From: Escherichia phage VEc33
Strand: one strand, 5' to 3'
Length of the DNA stretch: 64,000 nucleotides
Sequence record: NC_048818.1
Shown: positions 248 to 38,849 of the stretch, in pieces
How the letters are laid out: each line of letters opens with the position of its first letter
Numbering within the stretch: position 1 is the first letter of the stretch
The notes under the pieces: model-generated
Seen by the model: only the letters and a program-made list of their open reading frames with translations
The model's database searches: none
What the model was told of the DNA's origin: nothing
Position numbers and translations under genes: made by a program

Positions 248-325
248 TGGTGGATTGCCTGGGATTCGAACCCAGAACTGACGGATTAAAGGTCCGCTAC
301 TCTTATCCAGTTGAGCTAGCAATCC
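248..325 (-). tRNA. tRNA, anticodon loop CCUUUAA (UUU, Lys-type)
   Basis: RC gives acceptor GGATTGC/GCAATCC, D-arm GCTC..GAGT, T-arm CTGGG-TTCGAAT-CCCAG, encoded CCA. Confidence 0.6.
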
Positions 326-789
326 AAATTCTCTACTAATAGTTTAAAAGCGTCTAACAGAGGTACTTCAAACCATTCTCCTGATACTTTGTAGTCTTTC
401 AGAAGATTATGTAATGCTTTTTCAGTTCTTCTCTTGTCCGAGGAGAATCTAAAATGGTATAACTTGTAATCACGATAGGGCGAATATGTTTGATAACTAG
501 ACAGTCTTTCATTTACGTCTACTGTCATACCTATCTTATAGAGTCCAGGCCACGCTGGGTTACCTATTACATATACAAACCCTTCTGTTATAGGGATTTT
601 ATGCTCCCTTTTATACTTCAGTAAGTTTAACGCTGCCATTCTATAACAGAACTTAAACTCTGAGGATTTTAGTTTACCTTCTTTACCGGATATTTCGTTA
701 TACTTCTCCATATACCTACGTATTAAGGAGTCAGTAATAGTAAAGTGCTTTGGAAGATCCAGGGCTTGAAGTACACGGTTAATAAGCAT
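316..789 (-). CDS. T5orf172-domain (GIY-YIG-like) protein, possible homing endonuclease
   Basis: ORF 157 aa; motif GFVYVIGNPAWPGLYKIGMT...RLSSYQTYSPY typical of T5orf172/GIY-YIG fold; embedded in tRNA array. Confidence 0.6.
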   Translation of the reverse strand: MLINRVLQALDLPKHFTITDSLIRRYMEKYNEISGKEGKLKSSEFKFCYRMAALNLLKYKREHKIPITEGFVYVIGNPAWPGLYKIGMTVDVNERLSSYQTYSPYRDYKLYHFRFSSDKRRTEKALHNLLKDYKVSGEWFEVPLLDAFKLLVENLDC

Positions 790-2468: not shown

Positions 2469-2546
2469 ACTTAACTCTACACAGAATTTGGCGGTTCCTG
2501 CTGGATTCGAACCAGCAACCCTCAACTTAACAAGATGCCGCTCTAA
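2469..2546 (-). tRNA. tRNA, anticodon loop UUGUUAA (GUU, Asn-type)
   Basis: RC: acceptor GGTTCCT/AGGAACC, D-arm GCTC-TAATTGGTTA-GAGC, T-arm GCTGG-TTCGAAT-CCAGC, CCA; anticodon stem imperfect. Confidence 0.55.
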
Positions 2547-3061
2547 CCAATTAGAGCTAAGGAACCATATAAGTCAGAACTAGAGTTAATACGTTCTAGA
2601 TATTTACTAAGATCTCTAGAATTTATACTAAACCACTCATGCTCTTTTAAATCTTTGAAATACCGGTGAATTAGTTTTTCACCTTTTCGTTTGTCAAACC
2701 AAAAAGACCAGTGCTCTAACTTATAATCCCTATAAGGGGAATAAGTCTGATATTGAGCTAATCTCTCTTTTGGATTTTGACTCATACCTATTTTATACTG
2801 ATTTTTCCATGCAGGATTACTAATACAGTATACAAAACCTTCAGAAATAGGAAGTTTATTTTCCTGCTTAAACTTTATAAAGGAAAGTGCAGCAAGTTTT
2901 CTCGAATACATAGTATTCGTATTCTTTTTGGTATTACCATTGGTTCCTGAAAGATTTATATATTCTTCCATAAATCTTTGGATTAGTTCTGCGGTTATAT
3001 AGAAGGGCTCATTAGTAACAACGCCTTTCTTTACCAAACTATCAAAAACTTTTGTATGCAC
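2543..3061 (-). CDS. T5orf172-domain (GIY-YIG-like) protein, paralog of 316-789
   Basis: 172 aa; ISEGFVYCISNPAWKNQYKIGMSQNPKERLAQYQTYSPY aligns with the 316-789 product. Confidence 0.6.
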   Translation of the reverse strand: MHTKVFDSLVKKGVVTNEPFYITAELIQRFMEEYINLSGTNGNTKKNTNTMYSRKLAALSFIKFKQENKLPISEGFVYCISNPAWKNQYKIGMSQNPKERLAQYQTYSPYRDYKLEHWSFWFDKRKGEKLIHRYFKDLKEHEWFSINSRDLSKYLERINSSSDLYGSLALIG

Positions 3062-4733: not shown

Positions 4734-4810
4734 TGGTAGGGGTGGTGGGATTCGAACCCACAAAACCTGAATTTTAAGTCCAGTACCTATGCCAATTCGA
4801 TTACACCCCC
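4734..4810 (-). tRNA. tRNA with anticodon loop CUUAAAA (UAA, reads UUA Leu) but short variable arm
   Basis: RC: acceptor GGGGGTG/CACCCCT, anticodon stem CTGGA/TTCAG, T-arm GTGGG-TTCGAAT-CCCAC, CCA; 77 nt, type-I architecture. Confidence 0.55.
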
Positions 4811-4817
4811 GTGTAGT

Positions 4818-5006
4818 TTAGTCAATTACTTTTGAGGCTTCAAGGTAGTCGATATAGTGTATGTTTTCTACCGTAATCATATAATCTGCCACTTTATCCA
4901 TAGCTTGGGCTTCAGAGGTAGCTCTGGCTAACCTATATCCTTTTTTATATTCATCCTGGTATTCTCTATCTTGGATAAACACAACATAAACTATATATAG
5001 ATCCAT
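4818..5006 (-). CDS. hypothetical protein
   Basis: 62 aa ORF. Confidence 0.4.
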   Translation of the reverse strand: MDLYIVYVVFIQDREYQDEYKKGYRLARATSEAQAMDKVADYMITVENIHYIDYLEASKVID

Positions 5007-5023
5007 TTGTTACCTCTATTTAA

Positions 5024-18096: not shown

Positions 18097-18118
18097 TGAT
18101 TTTCCTCTTTCTCACTAT

Positions 18119-18147
18119 TTCAGGAATATTATAGCAAATCAGGTAGC
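18119..18147 (-). promoter_or_regulatory. sigma70-type promoter upstream of nrdB
   Basis: attata 18119-18124 and tagcaa 18142-18147. Confidence 0.5.
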
Positions 18148-27590: not shown

Positions 27591-30380
27591 GTGTTTTCAA
27601 TCCTACAAGGTCATGCAGGATTTCATCGCGATTTAGCCACAGGCAATTGGCGAGAAGTTAAAGCAGAAGATTATCTTTTTGCTAAAAGATTTTCCTCAAA
27701 GCATCCTGAAGGTAAACCAGCTTCAATGCCCTTCAAGTTTGATGTAATTGACGAAGTTGATCCTCAAACCCTAGTAGAAATGCTTCCCATTATGAGACGT
27801 TTAACGTCTGACCCTCATATCGTTGCGGTACGAGGTCGATGTCTTGCACCTAAAAATAATGTGCGGCGTAAGAAGGGCAACTTTAATGTATCTAACCCAA
27901 GTCATATAATCGCAATGGATGTGGATGGTATTGTAGATACAGGTGGTTGTAACAAGTTTGATCTTGTTGGCATGGCTCGACATATTATTAGAATGTTAAA
28001 TAGTATTAGTGAGGATATGTTCCCTCTTGATGCAGGGTTTATCGCTCATGCATCATCTTCGGCTGGGCTAAAACCAGGTATCCGAATGCACTTAATACTA
28101 GAATCTAATGTTAAAGTAACTCAGGGTCAAATCAAATTCTTATTTACATCTATCAACGAAAGTAGTAGACAAAAGTATGGCTTTGATATTGCCGACCTAG
28201 CTTATTACTCTTCCGTACAGCTTCATTATTTTGCAGATCCGTTATTTATCGATGGTATAGTAGATCCGTTTAAAGCGGAGGGTGCTTCACGTCTGGTATT
28301 TGTTAAGGGTTCTAAAGTAAATTTACCCAATAATCTGGTTGACTATGAAACAACTAGAGGAGAGTTTAAAGAGGAGTTCTACTCCTTACTCGATCAAATT
28401 AAAGGTAAAAAGGCTGCCTCTGATAAAGTAGAAGAAACCATCAGCGAGTTAGAAGAAGCCGAGGATGGAGTGTATCTACGTATTATTCCTAAACTCTATC
28501 ACAGAGCTTTAGAGGATGGTGTTGATTTTGCATGGCTAGAAAAAGAAATCCGCCCAGCCTTATCAGAATATATTGCAACTAAAGATAATAGTCGTAATAT
28601 TCAAGACTACTTTAATAACGGTCGTAAACAGGCTCTGAAAGCGTTTGTTAATAATTCTAAACGCGATATACCTGATGTTTTAAAAGGTATTCCACTTAAA
28701 AAGCTAGAAACTAATTCTCTAGAAACTGATAACTTCTTGAAATTAAACACTGTACCACCAGAAGGTTATATGACTTTTGTAAAAGCAAGTCTAGGTACAG
28801 GTAAAACCACGGCAGTTGTGCGTTGGTTAGATTCAGGGGTTATTAAAGGTAATTTCTTAGCAATTACCAATACTAGAGCACTGGTATCTTCAAATGCTAA
28901 GAAATTTAGTGCAGGACAGTATGATAAGTCTGTAGATATGCTTAATTTTAAGCGTGGTGCTATTGACCGTATGTCCACAACTATTCACTCTTTGCATAAA
29001 TTCAAGAGTTTTATTGGTCAAATTGACGCAATCTTTATCGATGAATGTGATGCAGTAATGAATGACCTATTATTCGCCCCGGTTGTTAAGCAACGTCGAG
29101 AGTGTATTCAGGTTCTTCGGGATATTCTTGCAACTGCAAAAATCATTATATTATCTGATGGGGATATTAGTGCAGAAACAATTGAAGCATATGGTTCTTT
29201 GATTGAGTTTGATAAACCGGTTGCATTTTATAATCATCACCGTAAAATGCTATCAAAAGCTCATGCTTATGAGTTTCCTGATGAATCCAGTATTTGGGTT
29301 GCACTTCAGACTTCCCTGGAGATGGGTGAGAAATCTATCCTAGTATCTGACTGTGGGCCAGATGAACTGAATGAGAAGGGCATGGCGTTGCGTCGTAATA
29401 CGGGTGCGTTAGTTAAGGAAATCCATTCAAATTCTACGTCTGATGTGGATATTAGACGTATCCTGGATTACACAACTAATGAGTTAATTGACCAACAAAT
29501 TGATTGCTTATTATGTAGTCCATCCGTAACGAGTGGTGTTGACTTCAACTATTTTGATAACGTATTCGTTATTACTAGAACCTCAAACCAAGCGCCAAAC
29601 ATGCGTTTCCAAGCAATCAGGCGCGACCGTGGTGCTCAGAATATCTATTATTTTATTGATAAATCCACTAGTGGATTCTCCGCAGGTTCTGAACAATATA
29701 ATATTGATGAAGGTTGGCTGGAGTTAGCACAGCAATTATATGCACGTCGCAGAGAGCTGGAATCTAGGAACTATACTAGTACTTTACGTTATTACTTGCT
29801 TGATCAGGGTGCAACTATTGATATTTTCAGCGAAAGCTGGGGAACTATTGAAGGTGCTGGTAAAGAGTACACAGAAGAGCGAATCAAAGCTATACTGTAT
29901 TCAACTCCTGATTATTGTGCTCCACGCCATGCAGATGCGTATGAAGCTAAACTACTTCTTGTTCGCTATTATCATCTTGAGTCTATTAAAGATGTAACAG
30001 TTGAGCATGTTGAACAATATATCAAGGATAAACCTAATGATCGAGCGGCATTCTTCCATAAAATGCACGAGATGTTTTGGGAAGATATTAAGAAGTGTTC
30101 AAATGTCACTATCAAACCATTCATAGAAGCTCTGAAAGGTAAGAAGAAAGATTTCTTCCTTAAAACAGGTCAGAGTGCTAACCCAAAATATGCGAGAATG
30201 TATCTTGGTATGATGGGTATTGGTAAGGATATGAACACTGAAAATATTGTAGACTGGTACAGAACCTATTGTAAAATCGAGTGTATGCCAATCCCGTATA
30301 AGTTTATGACTGATGAGGAGAAACATATGCATGATGAAGCAATGGCAGAGCTAGGTGCTAGAAATGACAGTGAAGAATAA
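27591..30380 (+). CDS. primase-polymerase-like / P-loop NTPase fusion (putative replication initiator, origin-binding type)
   Basis: GTG 27591 after ACAGGAGT RBS; N-terminal AEP-like IIAMDVDG...AHASSSAG; Walker A ASLGTGKTT, Walker B FIDECDAV. Confidence 0.6.
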   Translation: MFSILQGHAGFHRDLATGNWREVKAEDYLFAKRFSSKHPEGKPASMPFKFDVIDEVDPQTLVEMLPIMRRLTSDPHIVAVRGRCLAPKNNVRRKKGNFNVSNPSHIIAMDVDGIVDTGGCNKFDLVGMARHIIRMLNSISEDMFPLDAGFIAHASSSAGLKPGIRMHLILESNVKVTQGQIKFLFTSINESSRQKYGFDIADLAYYSSVQLHYFADPLFIDGIVDPFKAEGASRLVFVKGSKVNLPNNLVDYETTRGEFKEEFYSLLDQIKGKKAASDKVEETISELEEAEDGVYLRIIPKLYHRALEDGVDFAWLEKEIRPALSEYIATKDNSRNIQDYFNNGRKQALKAFVNNSKRDIPDVLKGIPLKKLETNSLETDNFLKLNTVPPEGYMTFVKASLGTGKTTAVVRWLDSGVIKGNFLAITNTRALVSSNAKKFSAGQYDKSVDMLNFKRGAIDRMSTTIHSLHKFKSFIGQIDAIFIDECDAVMNDLLFAPVVKQRRECIQVLRDILATAKIIILSDGDISAETIEAYGSLIEFDKPVAFYNHHRKMLSKAHAYEFPDESSIWVALQTSLEMGEKSILVSDCGPDELNEKGMALRRNTGALVKEIHSNSTSDVDIRRILDYTTNELIDQQIDCLLCSPSVTSGVDFNYFDNVFVITRTSNQAPNMRFQAIRRDRGAQNIYYFIDKSTSGFSAGSEQYNIDEGWLELAQQLYARRRELESRNYTSTLRYYLLDQGATIDIFSESWGTIEGAGKEYTEERIKAILYSTPDYCAPRHADAYEAKLLLVRYYHLESIKDVTVEHVEQYIKDKPNDRAAFFHKMHEMFWEDIKKCSNVTIKPFIEALKGKKKDFFLKTGQSANPKYARMYLGMMGIGKDMNTENIVDWYRTYCKIECMPIPYKFMTDEEKHMHDEAMAELGARNDSEE

Positions 30381-32878: not shown

Positions 32879-32908
32879 TATTTATATAAATTAATGAGAG
32901 GATTAATC

Positions 32909-33109
32909 ATGGCAATGACAGTAACACTTCCCAAGATTCAAGCAAAACTTAATCTACTTTCCACAGCACGCATTAATTATCAGGATAACATAGGCACAGT
33001 AAATCAAAAGGTGTACAAAGATGCGTTTCTGAAAGAATCTGCTGATTTGATGGATATGGTTACACAATATAATAAAGAACTCAAGATGGAAATCGCCGAT
33101 GATGAATAA
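32909..33109 (+). CDS. hypothetical small protein
   Basis: 66 aa from ATG 32909 (GAGAGG RBS); stop overlaps ligase start (ATGATGAATAA). Confidence 0.4.
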   Translation: MAMTVTLPKIQAKLNLLSTARINYQDNIGTVNQKVYKDAFLKESADLMDMVTQYNKELKMEIADDE

Positions 33110-35832: not shown

Positions 35833-35868
35833 AAGGGGAGGGGGCTATGCTCCTTCCCCTTTTTGCAT
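35833..35868 (+). terminator. rho-independent terminator
   Basis: AAGGGGAGGG-GGCTATGC-TCCTTCCCCTT followed by TTTGCATTT. Confidence 0.65.
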
Positions 35869-35897
35869 TTAGAAGGCACGAAAGCGTGCAAAGGAGA

Positions 35898-37370
35898 ATG
35901 ACCTTGTTTAACGTGCAAGCTGTAGTGTTGAAGATGCTTCTAGCTTCCGAACAGAAGCAAATAGCATTGGAAACATTCTCAAAACTGCATAAAGATCATT
36001 TTAATGACGCTTTCTCCTCAATTTACCAAGCCGTCCAGAATTATTATAAAAAATATAACACAATGCCGTCCATTGACGCACTTATGCTTGAAGCTAATAG
36101 GAACGCCCGCCTTTCTCAAGCTCTAGTCGTCTTAGCTAACACTCAAATTCCAGAAGTGAGCATGGAACAGGCACTTGAAGTCCTAGAAGCCGAATATACA
36201 CAGGATTTATTCCTGAAGCTTCTAGAAACAGACGTGCTTCAAGATTTAACAATGCTGGATCAGGGAGAAATTCTCAACCGAGTTGCCTCCCTTCACTTAA
36301 AATTAGAAGAGAAAGTAACGAATACTGGAAAAGTATTCAACGCAGATAACATGCGTATTTTCCAGAGAGAAGAAGATACCAAACTGAACTTAATCGCTCT
36401 TGGTATTTGTAATGAGTTCGACGCTCAAATCGGTTTAGCTCGCACAGAAACGTTACTGCTTGGTGGTTGGCGTGGTACTGGTAAATCCATTATCTGTTCA
36501 AACATACAGGTTCAGCAATATTTGAATGGGGATATTGCTCCATACTTCTCAATTGAGATGAAAGAACATGAAGTATTTAGACGTAATCTAGCCATGTTAG
36601 CTGGTGTATCGGCATTAGCAATGCGTAATAATACTCTAGAAGGTGCAGCTCTGTTGAGATTAGCCAGAACTAGAGCTAGAATGTTTAATGGTGGTGAAGA
36701 GCTTTTCGACAACTTCGTTAAACAGTACACAATGGCTAAGATGAGTGATTTCTACGATATGGAGAGTAAGCTAATAGAGGGATATGAACTACATACTCCT
36801 ATGATTATCGTTTATGACCCTGAACTGTCCATTACAACAGTTGACGTAGAATTAAATAAATTAGTTGCTAGATATGGGGATAAAGTTACAGTAGCTTTAC
36901 TGGACTATATTAACCAAACCCGACTTCCAGACTCTAAAACCATTGATATGTATGACTGGAAAGAACAGATGGTTGTTAGCTCGTCTTTCAAATCTATCTG
37001 CCAGAAACATAACGTGGCTGGTGTAGCTCCTTACCAGATTGATCAAGATGGTAGAACACGTATGTCAAAGGGGATTCTTGATTCCGCAGACATGGCTGCT
37101 AATCTTAATGCTGCAAAAGCTGATAATGGTCAAGGTGCTATTATGTTTGACTTCGTTAAGACTCGTTCTTCTGATAGCGTGAAGTTTATGCCTAAAATGA
37201 ACTGGGAAACCCTGCGGATGGATAACACTACCAACCTAGCAATGGAAGATATATCTCAAATGGAAGCTGAGTTCGTTATCCCTATTGAGAAGGATAAGCC
37301 GGCTCAATCTAAACGTGCTAAGAAAGACAAAGCTGAAAATTCAACAGGTGAACAGGCCAGCGATATATGA
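35898..37370 (+). CDS. DnaB-like replicative helicase
   Basis: 490 aa from ATG 35898 (AAGGAG RBS; track start 35847 lies inside the terminator hairpin); RecA-like core with GGWRGTGKS P-loop. Confidence 0.6.
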   Translation: MTLFNVQAVVLKMLLASEQKQIALETFSKLHKDHFNDAFSSIYQAVQNYYKKYNTMPSIDALMLEANRNARLSQALVVLANTQIPEVSMEQALEVLEAEYTQDLFLKLLETDVLQDLTMLDQGEILNRVASLHLKLEEKVTNTGKVFNADNMRIFQREEDTKLNLIALGICNEFDAQIGLARTETLLLGGWRGTGKSIICSNIQVQQYLNGDIAPYFSIEMKEHEVFRRNLAMLAGVSALAMRNNTLEGAALLRLARTRARMFNGGEELFDNFVKQYTMAKMSDFYDMESKLIEGYELHTPMIIVYDPELSITTVDVELNKLVARYGDKVTVALLDYINQTRLPDSKTIDMYDWKEQMVVSSSFKSICQKHNVAGVAPYQIDQDGRTRMSKGILDSADMAANLNAAKADNGQGAIMFDFVKTRSSDSVKFMPKMNWETLRMDNTTNLAMEDISQMEAEFVIPIEKDKPAQSKRAKKDKAENSTGEQASDI

Positions 37371-37900
37371 TAACACAGGAAAGGCTAAAAGAGTTATTTG
37401 ATTACTCCCCAGAAACTGGGGAGTTTACTAGAAAAGTATCTAGAGGTAATCAGAAAGCTGGTAGTATAATAACCAGAAAAGACTCTAACGGTTATATAAT
37501 TATTGGTATAGATGGCAAGGATTACAAAGCCCATCGGATGGCTTTTCTATTTATGGAAAATACATTGCCGAAAAAAGTAGACCATGTAAACAGAATACCT
37601 TTTGATAATAGGTGGTGTAATCTAAGAGACGCCACAGCTCAGGAAAATAGTAGAAATAAAACCGCATGTAGTAAGTCTGGATATTTGGGAGTTGCTTGGG
37701 ATATCGAAAAACAAAGATGGAGAGTTCAAGTAAGAGACTCTAATAGCACTCTTAAAAATGGTGGCAGATTTAAGCATGAAGAGCTAGAGCTAGCTGTAAA
37801 TTCAGCAAATATATTAAGGACTAAGTTACATGGAGAACGTGCTGTTATAGAAATTTTTGATACATCTAATTATCCTTCACTGGAGGAGTTAAATTCATGA
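37367..37900 (+). CDS. HNH homing endonuclease
   Basis: 177 aa; HVNRIPFDNRWCNLRDATAQENSRNK HNH motif; ATGA overlaps with both neighbours. Confidence 0.7.
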   Translation: MITQERLKELFDYSPETGEFTRKVSRGNQKAGSIITRKDSNGYIIIGIDGKDYKAHRMAFLFMENTLPKKVDHVNRIPFDNRWCNLRDATAQENSRNKTACSKSGYLGVAWDIEKQRWRVQVRDSNSTLKNGGRFKHEELELAVNSANILRTKLHGERAVIEIFDTSNYPSLEELNS

Positions 37901-38787
37901 GTCGAATAACAGAATTACTTGATCTTAAGGGAATTGAGTATAAAGATACTGGTGGAGATATTTTAATCTGTTGTCTCAATCCAGATCATGACGATAAACA
38001 CCCGAGTTTGCGTATTGACCCTGAAACAGGTATTATGCACTGCTTGAGTTGTGGCTTCGGTAAAGGTATACCGAGCATTTACCATTATTTTAATGAGACC
38101 CAGTACCGACAGTCCCCAAGGCTATCACAAGTACGTAAAAAAATTTCTGAGATTAGAAATGGATCTACGAATCTTGCAATCCCAGAATCTGCCTTTCTTT
38201 TTGAAGGTGATTTCCGAGGTATCAGTTCTAAGACCTTGAAGAAATATTTTGCTTTCCAACATCAAGAGAACTGGGAAGGCAGAATTGTATTCCCAATCAC
38301 AGATGCTGTTGGACGCAATATCCTATTTTTGGGTCGTTCTATAAACAGTTCTGCCCCTCCTAAATACTTAGTAAAACCAAAACAAGTTTCACCACCGATT
38401 TTCCCTGTACGATATAATACTCCAGTTCTTGTTCTAGTTGAAGGTATCTTTGATATGCTGAACCTAGAGGATAATGGTATAGACTATGCTTCTTGCTGCT
38501 TTGGTACACATCAGTTTACCTCGGATAACATTGCAGATAAGTTCAGTCCTTATATTATTGCTGGTGTTAAAGTTGTTGTTATCTTACTAGATAATGATGC
38601 TTCTGGTAATAAGGCCGCACAAGCATTGGCCAAGTTAATTCGTACAAAAACGCGTTTAACACCTGTAGTTGCTAATTTTCTTCTGCCTGAAGGTAAAGAC
38701 CCGGGTGACTTAAATAAAGAAGAGATCGATATGTTAGCAAAACGTATTGAAATTTTAGTTGCTGAATCGCTTAAAGATTTGGTATAA
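37897..38787 (+). CDS. DnaG-like DNA primase (zinc-binding and Toprim domains)
   Basis: 296 aa; CLNPDHDDKHPSLRIDPETGIMHCLSCGFGKG zinc ribbon; Toprim VLVEGIFDML...LLDNDASGNKAA. Confidence 0.75.
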   Translation: MSRITELLDLKGIEYKDTGGDILICCLNPDHDDKHPSLRIDPETGIMHCLSCGFGKGIPSIYHYFNETQYRQSPRLSQVRKKISEIRNGSTNLAIPESAFLFEGDFRGISSKTLKKYFAFQHQENWEGRIVFPITDAVGRNILFLGRSINSSAPPKYLVKPKQVSPPIFPVRYNTPVLVLVEGIFDMLNLEDNGIDYASCCFGTHQFTSDNIADKFSPYIIAGVKVVVILLDNDASGNKAAQALAKLIRTKTRLTPVVANFLLPEGKDPGDLNKEEIDMLAKRIEILVAESLKDLV

Positions 38788-38849
38788 TATATTGGTAAGT
38801 TAGAGAAGAAACACTGAAGTTATACTTACTTACCAAGAGGAGATTAAAT

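What the first reader, a model, noticed from the sequence alone, without database searches (positions are those of the whole stretch)
37367..37900. HNH homing endonuclease between the replicative helicase and primase genes
A 177-aa HNH endonuclease overlaps both neighbours by ATGA, the typical footprint of a free-standing homing endonuclease inserted between essential genes. Together with the two T5orf172 genes it indicates several selfish elements in this genome.
Basis: partly seen in the sequence, partly recalled or inferred. Interest (0 to 1): 0.28.

Follow-up and report, generated by a model that had tools for sequence, protein, structure and literature searches.

The report
T5 hegJ: mobile HNH nuclease gene
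This is the already-annotated phage T5 gene hegJ, a small selfish DNA-cutting (homing endonuclease) gene wedged precisely between the helicase and primase genes.

Summary
The window is a T5-like phage (Tequintavirus, 97-98% identical to T5). ORF 37367-37900 (+, 177 aa) is real and overlaps both neighbours by ATGA. It is 97.7% identical to T5 hegJ/T5.120, annotated "putative H-N-H endonuclease P-TflX".

- **Presence/absence:** only about 16% of T5-like records carry an HNH here (70 of 427). The rest, including BF23, join helicase and primase through a single ATGA, so the element is a precise 530-bp insertion.
- **Selection:** all ten copies examined are intact, with dN/dS 0.03-0.35 between diverged alleles.
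- **New detail:** HNH+ genomes carry a cluster of silent substitutions in the first ~75 nt of the primase gene. Positions 51, 66 and 69 differ in all 16 HNH+ haplotypes and in none of 22 HNH- haplotypes. I predict the cleavage/immunity site lies there.

This is a known kind and a known gene, never tested biochemically as far as I could find. Interest is low.

The parts
37367..37900 (+). HNH-AP2 endonuclease gene (177 aa), orthologue of T5 hegJ / T5.120 'putative H-N-H endonuclease P-TflX'
   Evidence: ORF. It is 97.7% aa identical to T5 hegJ and annotated as such in NC_005859. Pfam HNH_3 and PHROG 99 both match.
37367..37896 (+). The 530-bp insertion relative to HNH-less genomes. The boundary is ambiguous by 4 nt because ATGA is repeated at both ends.
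   Evidence: Alignment of 16 loci. Empty sites read ...GCCAGCGATAT|ATGAGTAGA...; filled sites carry the 530 bp between these.
37367..37370 (+). ATGA overlap: helicase stop / HNH start. This is the same junction that serves the primase start in HNH-less phages.
37897..37900 (+). ATGA overlap: HNH stop / primase start
37367..37666 (+). N-terminal half (aa 1-100): beta-hairpin region plus HNH (beta-beta-alpha-metal) nuclease domain, I-HmuI-like
37523..37654 (+). HNH_3 motif (aa 53-96), with H56, D72, H73, N81, N85, N94 conserved; N97 lies just beyond the Pfam match
   Evidence: Pfam match. Conserved columns in an 86-sequence alignment. The residues are retained in all ten alleles examined at this site.
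37679..37846 (+). C-terminal AP2/ERF-type DNA-binding domain (aa ~105-160)
37882..37888 (+). GGAGGAG Shine-Dalgarno-like sequence inside the HNH 3' end, 8 nt upstream of the primase ATG. The insertion brings its own ribosome-binding site for the displaced primase (inference).
   Evidence: Read from the sequence. The HNH 3' end LEE(L/I)NS is conserved in all alleles.
37903..37965 (+). Tract of 13 synonymous substitutions in primase nt 7-69, compared with the allele of HNH-less phages. The primase protein is unchanged.
   Evidence: Codon-by-codon comparison. Window versus phiLLS: 13 mismatches in primase nt 1-75 against a 1.9% background, P = 1.6e-9.
37947..37971 (+). Predicted core of the homing-site / immunity region (primase nt 51-75). 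Diagnostic positions are nt 51, 66 and 69 (window 37947, 37962, 37965).
   Evidence: These are the only 3 of 1,491 compared positions at which all 16 HNH+ haplotypes differ from the empty-site consensus, and 0 of 22 HNH- haplotypes differ there. Differences per site are 0.278 (HNH+) against 0.004 (HNH-).
35847..37370 (+). D6 DnaB-like replicative helicase (upstream neighbour). Its 3' end shows no HNH-linked substitutions.
37897..38787 (+). DnaG-type primase (downstream neighbour, and host gene of the predicted target)

Best explanation
The ORF is a free-standing homing endonuclease gene of the HNH-AP2 type. It is the orthologue of phage T5 hegJ.

**Shown here**
- It is a precise 530-bp insertion at the helicase/primase ATGA junction, and about 84% of T5-like phages lack it.
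- It encodes an intact protein under purifying selection.
- The protein has an I-HmuI-like HNH nuclease half and a C-terminal AP2 DNA-binding fold.
- HNH-carrying genomes have a distinct, purely synonymous allele of the first ~75 nt of the primase gene.

**Inferred mechanism**
1. The gene is co-transcribed with the helicase and primase. It is translated by coupling at the ATGA that normally starts the primase.
2. It supplies a GGAGGAG ribosome-binding site for the displaced primase, so it costs the phage little.
3. In a mixed infection with an HNH-less relative, the enzyme binds the conserved, GC-richer primase sequence of the empty allele, GACACAGGTGGGGACATCCTCATCTGT (primase nt 49-75).
4. 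It then nicks or cuts nearby. A strand-specific nick is most likely, as with I-HmuI.
5. Replication and recombination repair using the HNH+ genome as template copies the gene and the adjacent silent markers into the recipient.
6. The carrier's own genome is protected by the silent changes, at minimum GAC>GAT, ATC>ATT and CTC>TTA/CTT at primase nt 51, 66 and 69.
For: - **Identity:** 97-98% nt identity to T5 across the locus. T5 annotates the gene as hegJ, a putative H-N-H endonuclease.
- **Sporadic distribution:** 70 of 427 records carry the HNH 3' end joined to the primase start, while 357 matches fall short of 80% coverage, and all 50 of those listed begin at or just inside the primase ATG (49 at query position 28, one at 35). 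Full-length HNH DNA is in 75 records, against 515-516 for the flanks. In IMG/VR, 8 of 27 close loci are HNH+, and none of about 50 distant loci are.
- **Precise empty sites:**
- **Functional constraint:** all 10 examined copies are intact. dN/dS is 0.03-0.35 between diverged alleles; pairs of near-identical copies carry too few changes for a meaningful ratio.
- **Target/immunity signature:** 13 silent changes in primase nt 7-69. Perfect association at nt 51/66/69, 16/16 against 0/22, Fisher 4.5e-11. No such cluster on the helicase side.
- **Other HEGs also vary:** the same phage lacks T5's other HNH genes hegA, hegH and hegI.
- **Recurrent landing spot:** a distant metagenomic phage has a GIY-YIG ORF at the equivalent position just upstream of its primase.
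- **Literature:** homing endonucleases, including the F-Tfl H-N-H enzymes of T5, are described as the main source of differences among T5-like genomes (PMC10644984). HEGs cluster next to replisome and other essential genes (PMC10448857). I-HmuI is a nicking HNH homing enzyme (PMC3017599).
Against: - No cleavage or homing assay exists for this protein. I found no paper on hegJ itself.
- The silent-substitution tract could be a co-conversion scar from a diverged donor rather than selected immunity, so the exact target position is inferred.
- The association test is not corrected for shared ancestry of the haplotypes.
- One AP2 type occurs with two or three different primase alleles, and one primase allele occurs with three HNH types. 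The allele-to-enzyme correspondence is therefore not one-to-one.
- Pfam AP2 is below threshold on this sequence.
Confidence: 0.8

Rival explanations
1. The gene is a decaying or already inactive homing endonuclease remnant. It no longer cuts anything and simply hitch-hikes in the replication operon.
For: HEGs commonly degenerate after fixation. No activity data exist. Window versus Gostya9 and SP15 gives dN/dS near or above 1, but on very few substitutions.
Against: All ten copies examined are full length with no frameshift or stop, and all keep D72, H73, N81, N85, N94 and N97. dN/dS is 0.03-0.35 between diverged alleles. The gene is far from fixed (about 16% of records), which is the phase when activity is expected.
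Confidence: 0.08
2. The HNH is a domesticated accessory nuclease that benefits the phage. It might exclude or degrade competing T5-like genomes, or create nicks/primers for recombination-dependent replication next to the replisome genes. On this view it is not a purely selfish element.
For: It lies inside the replication operon and is translationally coupled to helicase and primase. It is under purifying selection. Homing endonucleases can give their host phage a competitive or anti-defence advantage (SegB, PMC13096335; marker exclusion, PMC2330249).
Against: About 84% of close relatives replicate without it, and BF23 lacks it. Mechanistically this reading overlaps with homing: cutting the competitor's allele is the same act. 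It is more an added consequence than a distinct mechanism.
Confidence: 0.08
3. The HNH is the enzyme that introduces the characteristic single-strand interruptions (nicks at PuGCGC) into T5 virion DNA.
For: I-HmuI-like HNH enzymes are nickases (PMC3017599). T5 DNA carries site-specific nicks, annotated in NC_005859.
Against: BF23 carries the same kind of nicks (PMC10644984) but has no HNH at this locus; its helicase and primase overlap directly and it has the exact empty-site allele. Most T5-like phages lack the gene. A two-domain protein with an AP2 module is expected to read a long site, not a 4-5-nt motif (inference).
Confidence: 0.02
4. It is a packaging-associated HNH that works with the terminase, as in many cos-type siphoviruses.
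For: HNH endonucleases next to terminase genes are common in phages (PMC3592412).
Against: The gene sits in the early replication operon between helicase and primase, not next to a terminase. It is absent from most relatives. It has an AP2 domain rather than the zinc-ribbon/CxxC HNH architecture.
Confidence: 0.01

Closest known systems
Phage T5 hegJ (T5.120, YP_006948.1, 'putative H-N-H-endonuclease P-TflX')
   Same: It is the same gene. It has 97.7% aa identity, the same length (177 aa), the same position between D6 helicase and primase, and the same ATGA overlaps.
   Different: There are four amino-acid differences. The T5 annotation is a prediction only, and I found no biochemical study.
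I-HmuI / I-BasI (intron-encoded HNH nicking homing endonucleases of Bacillus phages SPO1 and Bastille; PDB 1u3e)
   Different: I-HmuI is intron-encoded inside the DNA polymerase gene and has helical/HTH C-terminal DNA-binding modules. The T5 protein is free-standing between two genes and has an AP2 domain instead. Nicking by the T5 protein is inferred, not shown.
HNH-AP2 homing endonucleases (Magnani et al. 2004 family, as cited in PMC10448857; IPA-HNH HEGs of ICP1-like phages)
   Same: It has the same N-terminal HNH plus C-terminal AP2 architecture. These genes also sit next to replisome and other essential phage genes (PMC10448857).
   Different: The ICP1 IPA-HNH domains are too divergent to hit Pfam HNH_3 (PMC10448857), whereas this protein hits HNH_3 above threshold. 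Sequence relatedness to those proteins was not tested here.
[quoted passage not shown] 2004, cited in PMC2330249 and PMC10644984)
   Same: They belong to the same phage and the same enzyme superfamily, and are also free-standing homing-type genes that vary among T5-like phages.
   Different: They sit at different loci (the tRNA cluster). Their sequences were not compared here. T5's other annotated HNH genes were: hegH is 37% and hegI 36% identical to hegJ over partial alignments, and hegA shows no significant similarity. F-TflI/II/IV were characterised biochemically, while hegJ was not.
Free-standing HEGs of T4-like phages (SegB, MobE, etc.)
   Same: They insert between conserved genes, cut the HEG-less allele at a distance from the insertion point, co-convert flanking markers, and protect the carrier through target polymorphisms (PMC2330249, PMC2790892).
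   Different: The nuclease family or architecture differs (GIY-YIG for Seg; HNH without AP2 for MobE), and so does the phage lineage.

Membership tests
HNH (His-Me finger) endonucleases, Pfam HNH_3 / I-HmuI-like | Profile match above the curated threshold | tested here: met
   PF13392 scores 32.6 bits against a cutoff of 24.8, E 6.1e-8, residues 53-96.
HNH (His-Me finger) endonucleases, Pfam HNH_3 / I-HmuI-like | Catalytic His and metal-ligand Asp/Asn residues present | tested here: met
   H73 is invariant. D72, N81, N85, N94, N97 and H56 are at least 90% conserved among 86 homologues, and all are present here. They are retained in all site alleles.
HNH (His-Me finger) endonucleases, Pfam HNH_3 / I-HmuI-like | Beta-beta-alpha-metal fold resembling a solved HNH homing enzyme | tested here: met
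HNH (His-Me finger) endonucleases, Pfam HNH_3 / I-HmuI-like | Metal-dependent DNA nicking or cleavage | not testable with these tools
   This needs purified protein and a DNA substrate.
HNH-AP2 homing endonucleases | C-terminal AP2/ERF DNA-binding domain | tested here: met
Free-standing homing endonuclease genes | Sporadic presence/absence among close relatives, with precise insertion boundaries and undisrupted neighbours | tested here: met
   70 of 427 records are HNH+. The indel is exactly 530 bp with ATGA at both ends, and both neighbours are intact.
Free-standing homing endonuclease genes | Gene is intact and under purifying selection while polymorphic in the population | tested here: met
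   Ten intact copies, with dN/dS 0.03-0.35 between diverged alleles.
Free-standing homing endonuclease genes | Target site in the HEG-less allele, with protective polymorphism in the HEG+ allele | tested here: inconclusive
   There is a strong comparative signature. Primase nt 51/66/69 differ in 16/16 HNH+ and 0/22 HNH- haplotypes, and all changes are synonymous. Cleavage of the empty allele and resistance of the filled allele were not measured, and a co-conversion scar would look similar.
Free-standing homing endonuclease genes | Unidirectional gene conversion (super-Mendelian inheritance) in mixed infection | not testable with these tools
   This needs T5 x BF23 (or phiLLS) co-infection crosses.
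T5 genome-nicking enzyme (single-chain interruptions) | Present in every phage that carries the nicks | tested here: not met
   BF23 has nicks (PMC10644984) but lacks the gene.
Terminase-associated packaging HNH | Encoded next to terminase/cos and conserved in the lineage | tested here: not met
   It is located between helicase and primase in the early region, and about 84% of relatives lack it.

The most novel reading that the evidence does not exclude
The helicase/primase junction of T5-like phages may be a contested homing site. At least three deeply diverged HNH-AP2 alleles occupy it (T5-type, Daisy/NR01-type and 3sent1-type, about 60-65% aa identity). There are also mosaics that swap the AP2 half, such as JLBYU43. 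Several different synonymous 'immunity' alleles of the primase 5' end occur alongside them. The variants might have different specificities and displace one another. That would be an arms race among competing homing endonucleases, played out in the silent sites of an essential gene.
Probability: 0.2. Interest if true: 0.45.

Novelty: already known. Interest (0 to 1): 0.18.

Why it matters
It matters little for discovery. The gene has been annotated in T5 for years, and homing endonucleases next to replisome genes are a well-described pattern in phages.

There are two practical points:
- The comparative data give a specific, cheap prediction for an uncharacterised T5 enzyme. The target should lie within primase nt ~49-75 of HNH-less phages, with immunity conferred by silent changes at nt 51, 66 and 69. 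The classical T5 x BF23 cross can test this.
- Anyone engineering or comparing T5-like therapeutic phages should expect biased inheritance and local mosaicism around the helicase-primase junction.

Tried and rejected
- **Foldseek against PDB:** it found the AP2 domain but not I-HmuI.
- **NCBIfam:** no match.
- **Paralogue search:** phmmer of the protein against all window ORFs of at least 80 aa found no paralogue. tblastn with T5 hegA, hegH and hegI found only the hegJ locus itself, so those three T5 HEGs are absent from this phage.
- **First census attempt:** the 3.1-kb megablast could not detect absence, because losing the ORF still leaves 83% coverage. I replaced it with separate searches of the ORF and each flank, and with a 101-nt junction probe.
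- **Is the HNH N-terminus derived from the primase N-terminus?** Both begin M..IT.E.L. I rejected this because MITQERLKEL..Y.PETG.F is the consensus of the whole HNH family.
- **T5 nickase idea:** rejected using BF23.
- **Promoter/terminator scan:** promoter-like sites were no more frequent than in shuffles. One weak terminator-like hairpin lies inside the ORF (37526-37545; 6 pairs, 3 of them G-C), and I treat it as chance.
- **Literature:** searches for hegJ, TflX and F-Tfl found no study of this particular protein.

Full report
**What the window is.** The 3.1 kb around the finding is 97-98% identical to Escherichia phage T5 and to close relatives such as SP15, FGS017 and GEC_vB_N7. All belong to Tequintavirus, Demerecviridae. 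Gene order matches T5: ligA, ligB, D5, D6 helicase, HNH, primase, DNA polymerase.

**Observation check.** ORF 37367-37900 (+) encodes 177 aa.
- The sequence reads ...GATATATGATAACA... at 37367-37370 and ...AAATTCATGAGTCGA... at 37897-37900. Both ATGA stop/start overlaps are therefore real.
- The upstream ORF is a DnaB-like helicase and the downstream ORF is a DnaG-type primase.
- The ORF passes Pfam HNH_3 (32.6 bits, cutoff 24.8) and matches PHROG 99 'HNH endonuclease' at 2.6e-58.
- In the T5 reference record the same ORF is hegJ / T5.120, 'putative H-N-H-endonuclease P-TflX'. The window's protein is 97.7% identical to it.

**The protein.**
- A search of public proteins found 112 homologues, many carrying both PF13392 (HNH_3) and PF00847 (AP2).
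- In an 86-sequence alignment H73 is invariant. H56, D72, N81, N85, N94 and N97 are at least 90% conserved, and all are present here.
- An AlphaFold2 model built on that alignment is confident (mean pLDDT 94.7, pTM 0.78).
- The architecture is therefore an I-HmuI-like N-terminal DNA-contact plus HNH nuclease half (aa 1-100), joined to a C-terminal AP2 DNA-binding domain (aa ~105-160). This is the known HNH-AP2 class of homing endonucleases (PMC10448857, citing Magnani et al. 2004).
- Pfam AP2 on this sequence alone is sub-threshold (E 0.075).

- Separate blastn searches of the phage collection found the helicase 3' end in 528 records and the primase 5' end in 534. Full-length HNH DNA was found in only 75.
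- A 101-nt probe spanning the last 27 nt of the HNH and the first 74 nt of the primase matched 427 records. Of these, 70 covered the HNH part. The other 357 fell short of 80% coverage, and of the 50 of them listed, 49 began exactly at the primase ATG and one seven bases inside it. About 16% of T5-like records therefore carry an HNH here. The counts include RefSeq/GenBank duplicates.
- Annotated HNH-less genomes include phiLLS, AKFV33, NBSal002, TrudiGerster, phiR2-01, Sugarland and BF23. In all of them helicase and primase overlap by a single ATGA.
- In a 16-locus alignment the difference is a clean 530-bp block bounded by ATGA on both sides.
- In IMG/VR, 8 of 27 close loci are HNH+. None of about 50 distant relatives (37-72% primase identity) has an HNH homologue in the ±2.5 kb fetched around the primase, although helicase-then-primase order is kept. 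The direct junction is thus ancestral and the HNH is an insertion.

**Is the gene functional?** Ten copies at this site were compared.
- All are intact and keep the catalytic residues.
- They fall into at least three deeply diverged types (T5-type, DaisyDussoix-type and 3sent1/mar003J3-type, about 60-65% aa identity). There are also mosaics, such as JLBYU43 with a T5-like N-half and a diverged AP2 half.
- The flanks stay 97-100% identical.
- Between diverged alleles dN/dS is 0.03-0.35, which indicates purifying selection. Pairs of near-identical copies carry too few changes to give a meaningful ratio.

**Where it probably cuts.** This part is inference from comparison.
- The window differs from its closest HNH-less relatives (phiLLS, AKFV33, BF23) by 13 substitutions within primase nt 7-69.
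- All 13 are synonymous, and the first 50 primase residues are identical.
- The background divergence is 1.9%, which gives P = 1.6e-9 for 13 or more differences in 75 nt.
- The helicase side of the junction shows no such cluster.
- Across 16 distinct HNH+ and 22 distinct HNH- haplotypes, 1,491 positions were compared. The only positions where every HNH+ haplotype differs from the empty-site consensus are primase nt 51, 66 and 69 (window 37947, 37962, 37965).
- No HNH- haplotype differs at those three positions. Fisher's test gives 4.5e-11, uncorrected for shared ancestry.
- Within nt 51-75 the HNH+ set averages 0.278 differences per site, against 0.004 for the HNH- set.
- The empty allele here reads GACACAGGTGGGGACATCCTCATCTGT (56% GC). 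The window reads GATACTGGTGGAGATATTTTAATCTGT (33% GC).
- This is the pattern expected if the enzyme recognises the conserved primase 5' sequence of HNH-less phages, and carriers are protected by silent changes and/or co-converted markers. Free-standing HEGs of T4-like phages behave this way (PMC2330249, PMC2790892).
- The correspondence between HNH type and primase allele is not one-to-one. I therefore cannot separate immunity from co-conversion history.

**Fit into the operon.** This part is read from the sequence plus inference.
- The HNH start uses the very ATGA junction that starts the primase in empty genomes.
- The HNH 3' end carries GGAGGAG (37882-37888), 8 nt before the displaced primase ATG. 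This end (LEE[L/I]NS) is conserved in all alleles.
- The insertion therefore preserves translational coupling through the helicase-HNH-primase string, consistent with a low-cost selfish insertion.

**Rivals.**
- *T5 nick-introducing enzyme.* Rejected. BF23 has the nicks (PMC10644984) but lacks the gene and carries the exact empty allele.
- *Packaging HNH.* The genomic position and the architecture both argue against it.
- *Dead remnant.* Intactness and dN/dS argue against it.
- *Benefit to the phage.* A competitive advantage from excluding HNH-less co-infecting relatives is possible, but it uses the same mechanism.

**Context.**
- The same phage lacks T5's other HNH genes hegA, hegH (between nrdA and nrdB) and hegI; clean gaps sit where T5 has them.
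- It has two T5orf172 genes in the tRNA region, one of them absent from T5.
- A distant metagenomic relative has a GIY-YIG ORF directly upstream of its primase. This junction appears to be a recurrent landing place for homing genes.
- The literature already states that homing endonuclease genes, including the F-Tfl H-N-H enzymes of T5, are the main source of differences among T5-like genomes (PMC10644984). It also states that such genes cluster next to replisome genes (PMC10448857).
- I found no study of hegJ itself.

**Verdict.** The feature is a known gene of a known kind. The only added value is a concrete, testable prediction of the target/immunity region. Interest is low.

Noticed in passing
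window 4740-5015, 18110-18123, 30321-30360: T5's other HNH genes are absent from this otherwise 88-96% identical phage: hegA, hegH (between nrdB and nrdA) and hegI (after the origin-binding protein gene). The alignment to T5 shows gaps of about 700, 531 and 541 nt at these points.
   Followed up: partly
window 316-789 (-) and 2543-3061 (-): Two T5orf172/MUG113-domain genes lie in the tRNA region (Pfam E 1.6e-14 and 2.3e-12). The first lies in a window-specific insertion (322-788) that T5 lacks.
   Followed up: partly
window 38788-38849 (primase-polymerase spacer): SP15, slur09, phiLLS, DaisyDussoix, JLBYU43 and BF23 carry an extra 330-nt ORF ('hypothetical protein') between primase and DNA polymerase. 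This window and T5 lack it, so it is a second presence/absence polymorphism next to the primase.
   Followed up: no
window 35833-35861: A strong terminator-like hairpin (13-bp stem, 8 G-C pairs, then a T run) lies between D5 and the helicase. It overlaps the helicase start codon at 35847. Several records annotate a shorter helicase starting about 57 nt downstream.
   Followed up: no
window 37897-37971 versus HNH-less relatives: Among HNH-less haplotypes the first 75 nt of the primase are unusually invariant, even at synonymous sites: 0.004-0.016 differences per site against 0.02-0.12 elsewhere. This spans two genera. It suggests a nucleotide-level constraint, or that the homing enzyme has picked an exceptionally conserved target.
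   Followed up: partly
window 38097-38196 (primase nt ~200-300): This is a local divergence hot spot. Identity is 86-93% to every relative, including T5 and SP15, while neighbouring bins are 96-100%. It is not linked to HNH presence.
   Followed up: no
L013 (Salmonella phage Shivani) 1-545: Shivani carries an additional annotated HNH homing endonuclease between D5 and the helicase. Its helicase is therefore bracketed by two HNH genes.
   Followed up: no
L074 1744-2526; also L083, L085, L086, L088: A distant metagenomic relative (38% primase identity) has a 260-aa GIY-YIG ORF ending inside the primase start. The Pfam match is exactly at the cutoff (E 1.3e-4). L085 has a 71-aa ORF with no Pfam match in its 350-nt gap between helicase and primase; the similar gaps in L083, L086 and L088 were not examined.
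   Followed up: partly
window 32894-33109: A 71-aa ORF lies in a ~200-nt window-specific insertion just upstream of ligA. It is absent from T5 and has no Pfam match.
   Followed up: no
other T5-like genomes (one search hits H57-H69, e.g. oldekolle 103372-103725, HildyBeyeler 91800-92153): DNA similar to only the N-terminal/HNH two-thirds of this gene (query nt 1-354, 64-71% identity) occurs at unrelated genome positions in other T5-like phages. This suggests the same nuclease module is paired with different C-terminal DNA-binding modules at other homing sites.
   Followed up: no
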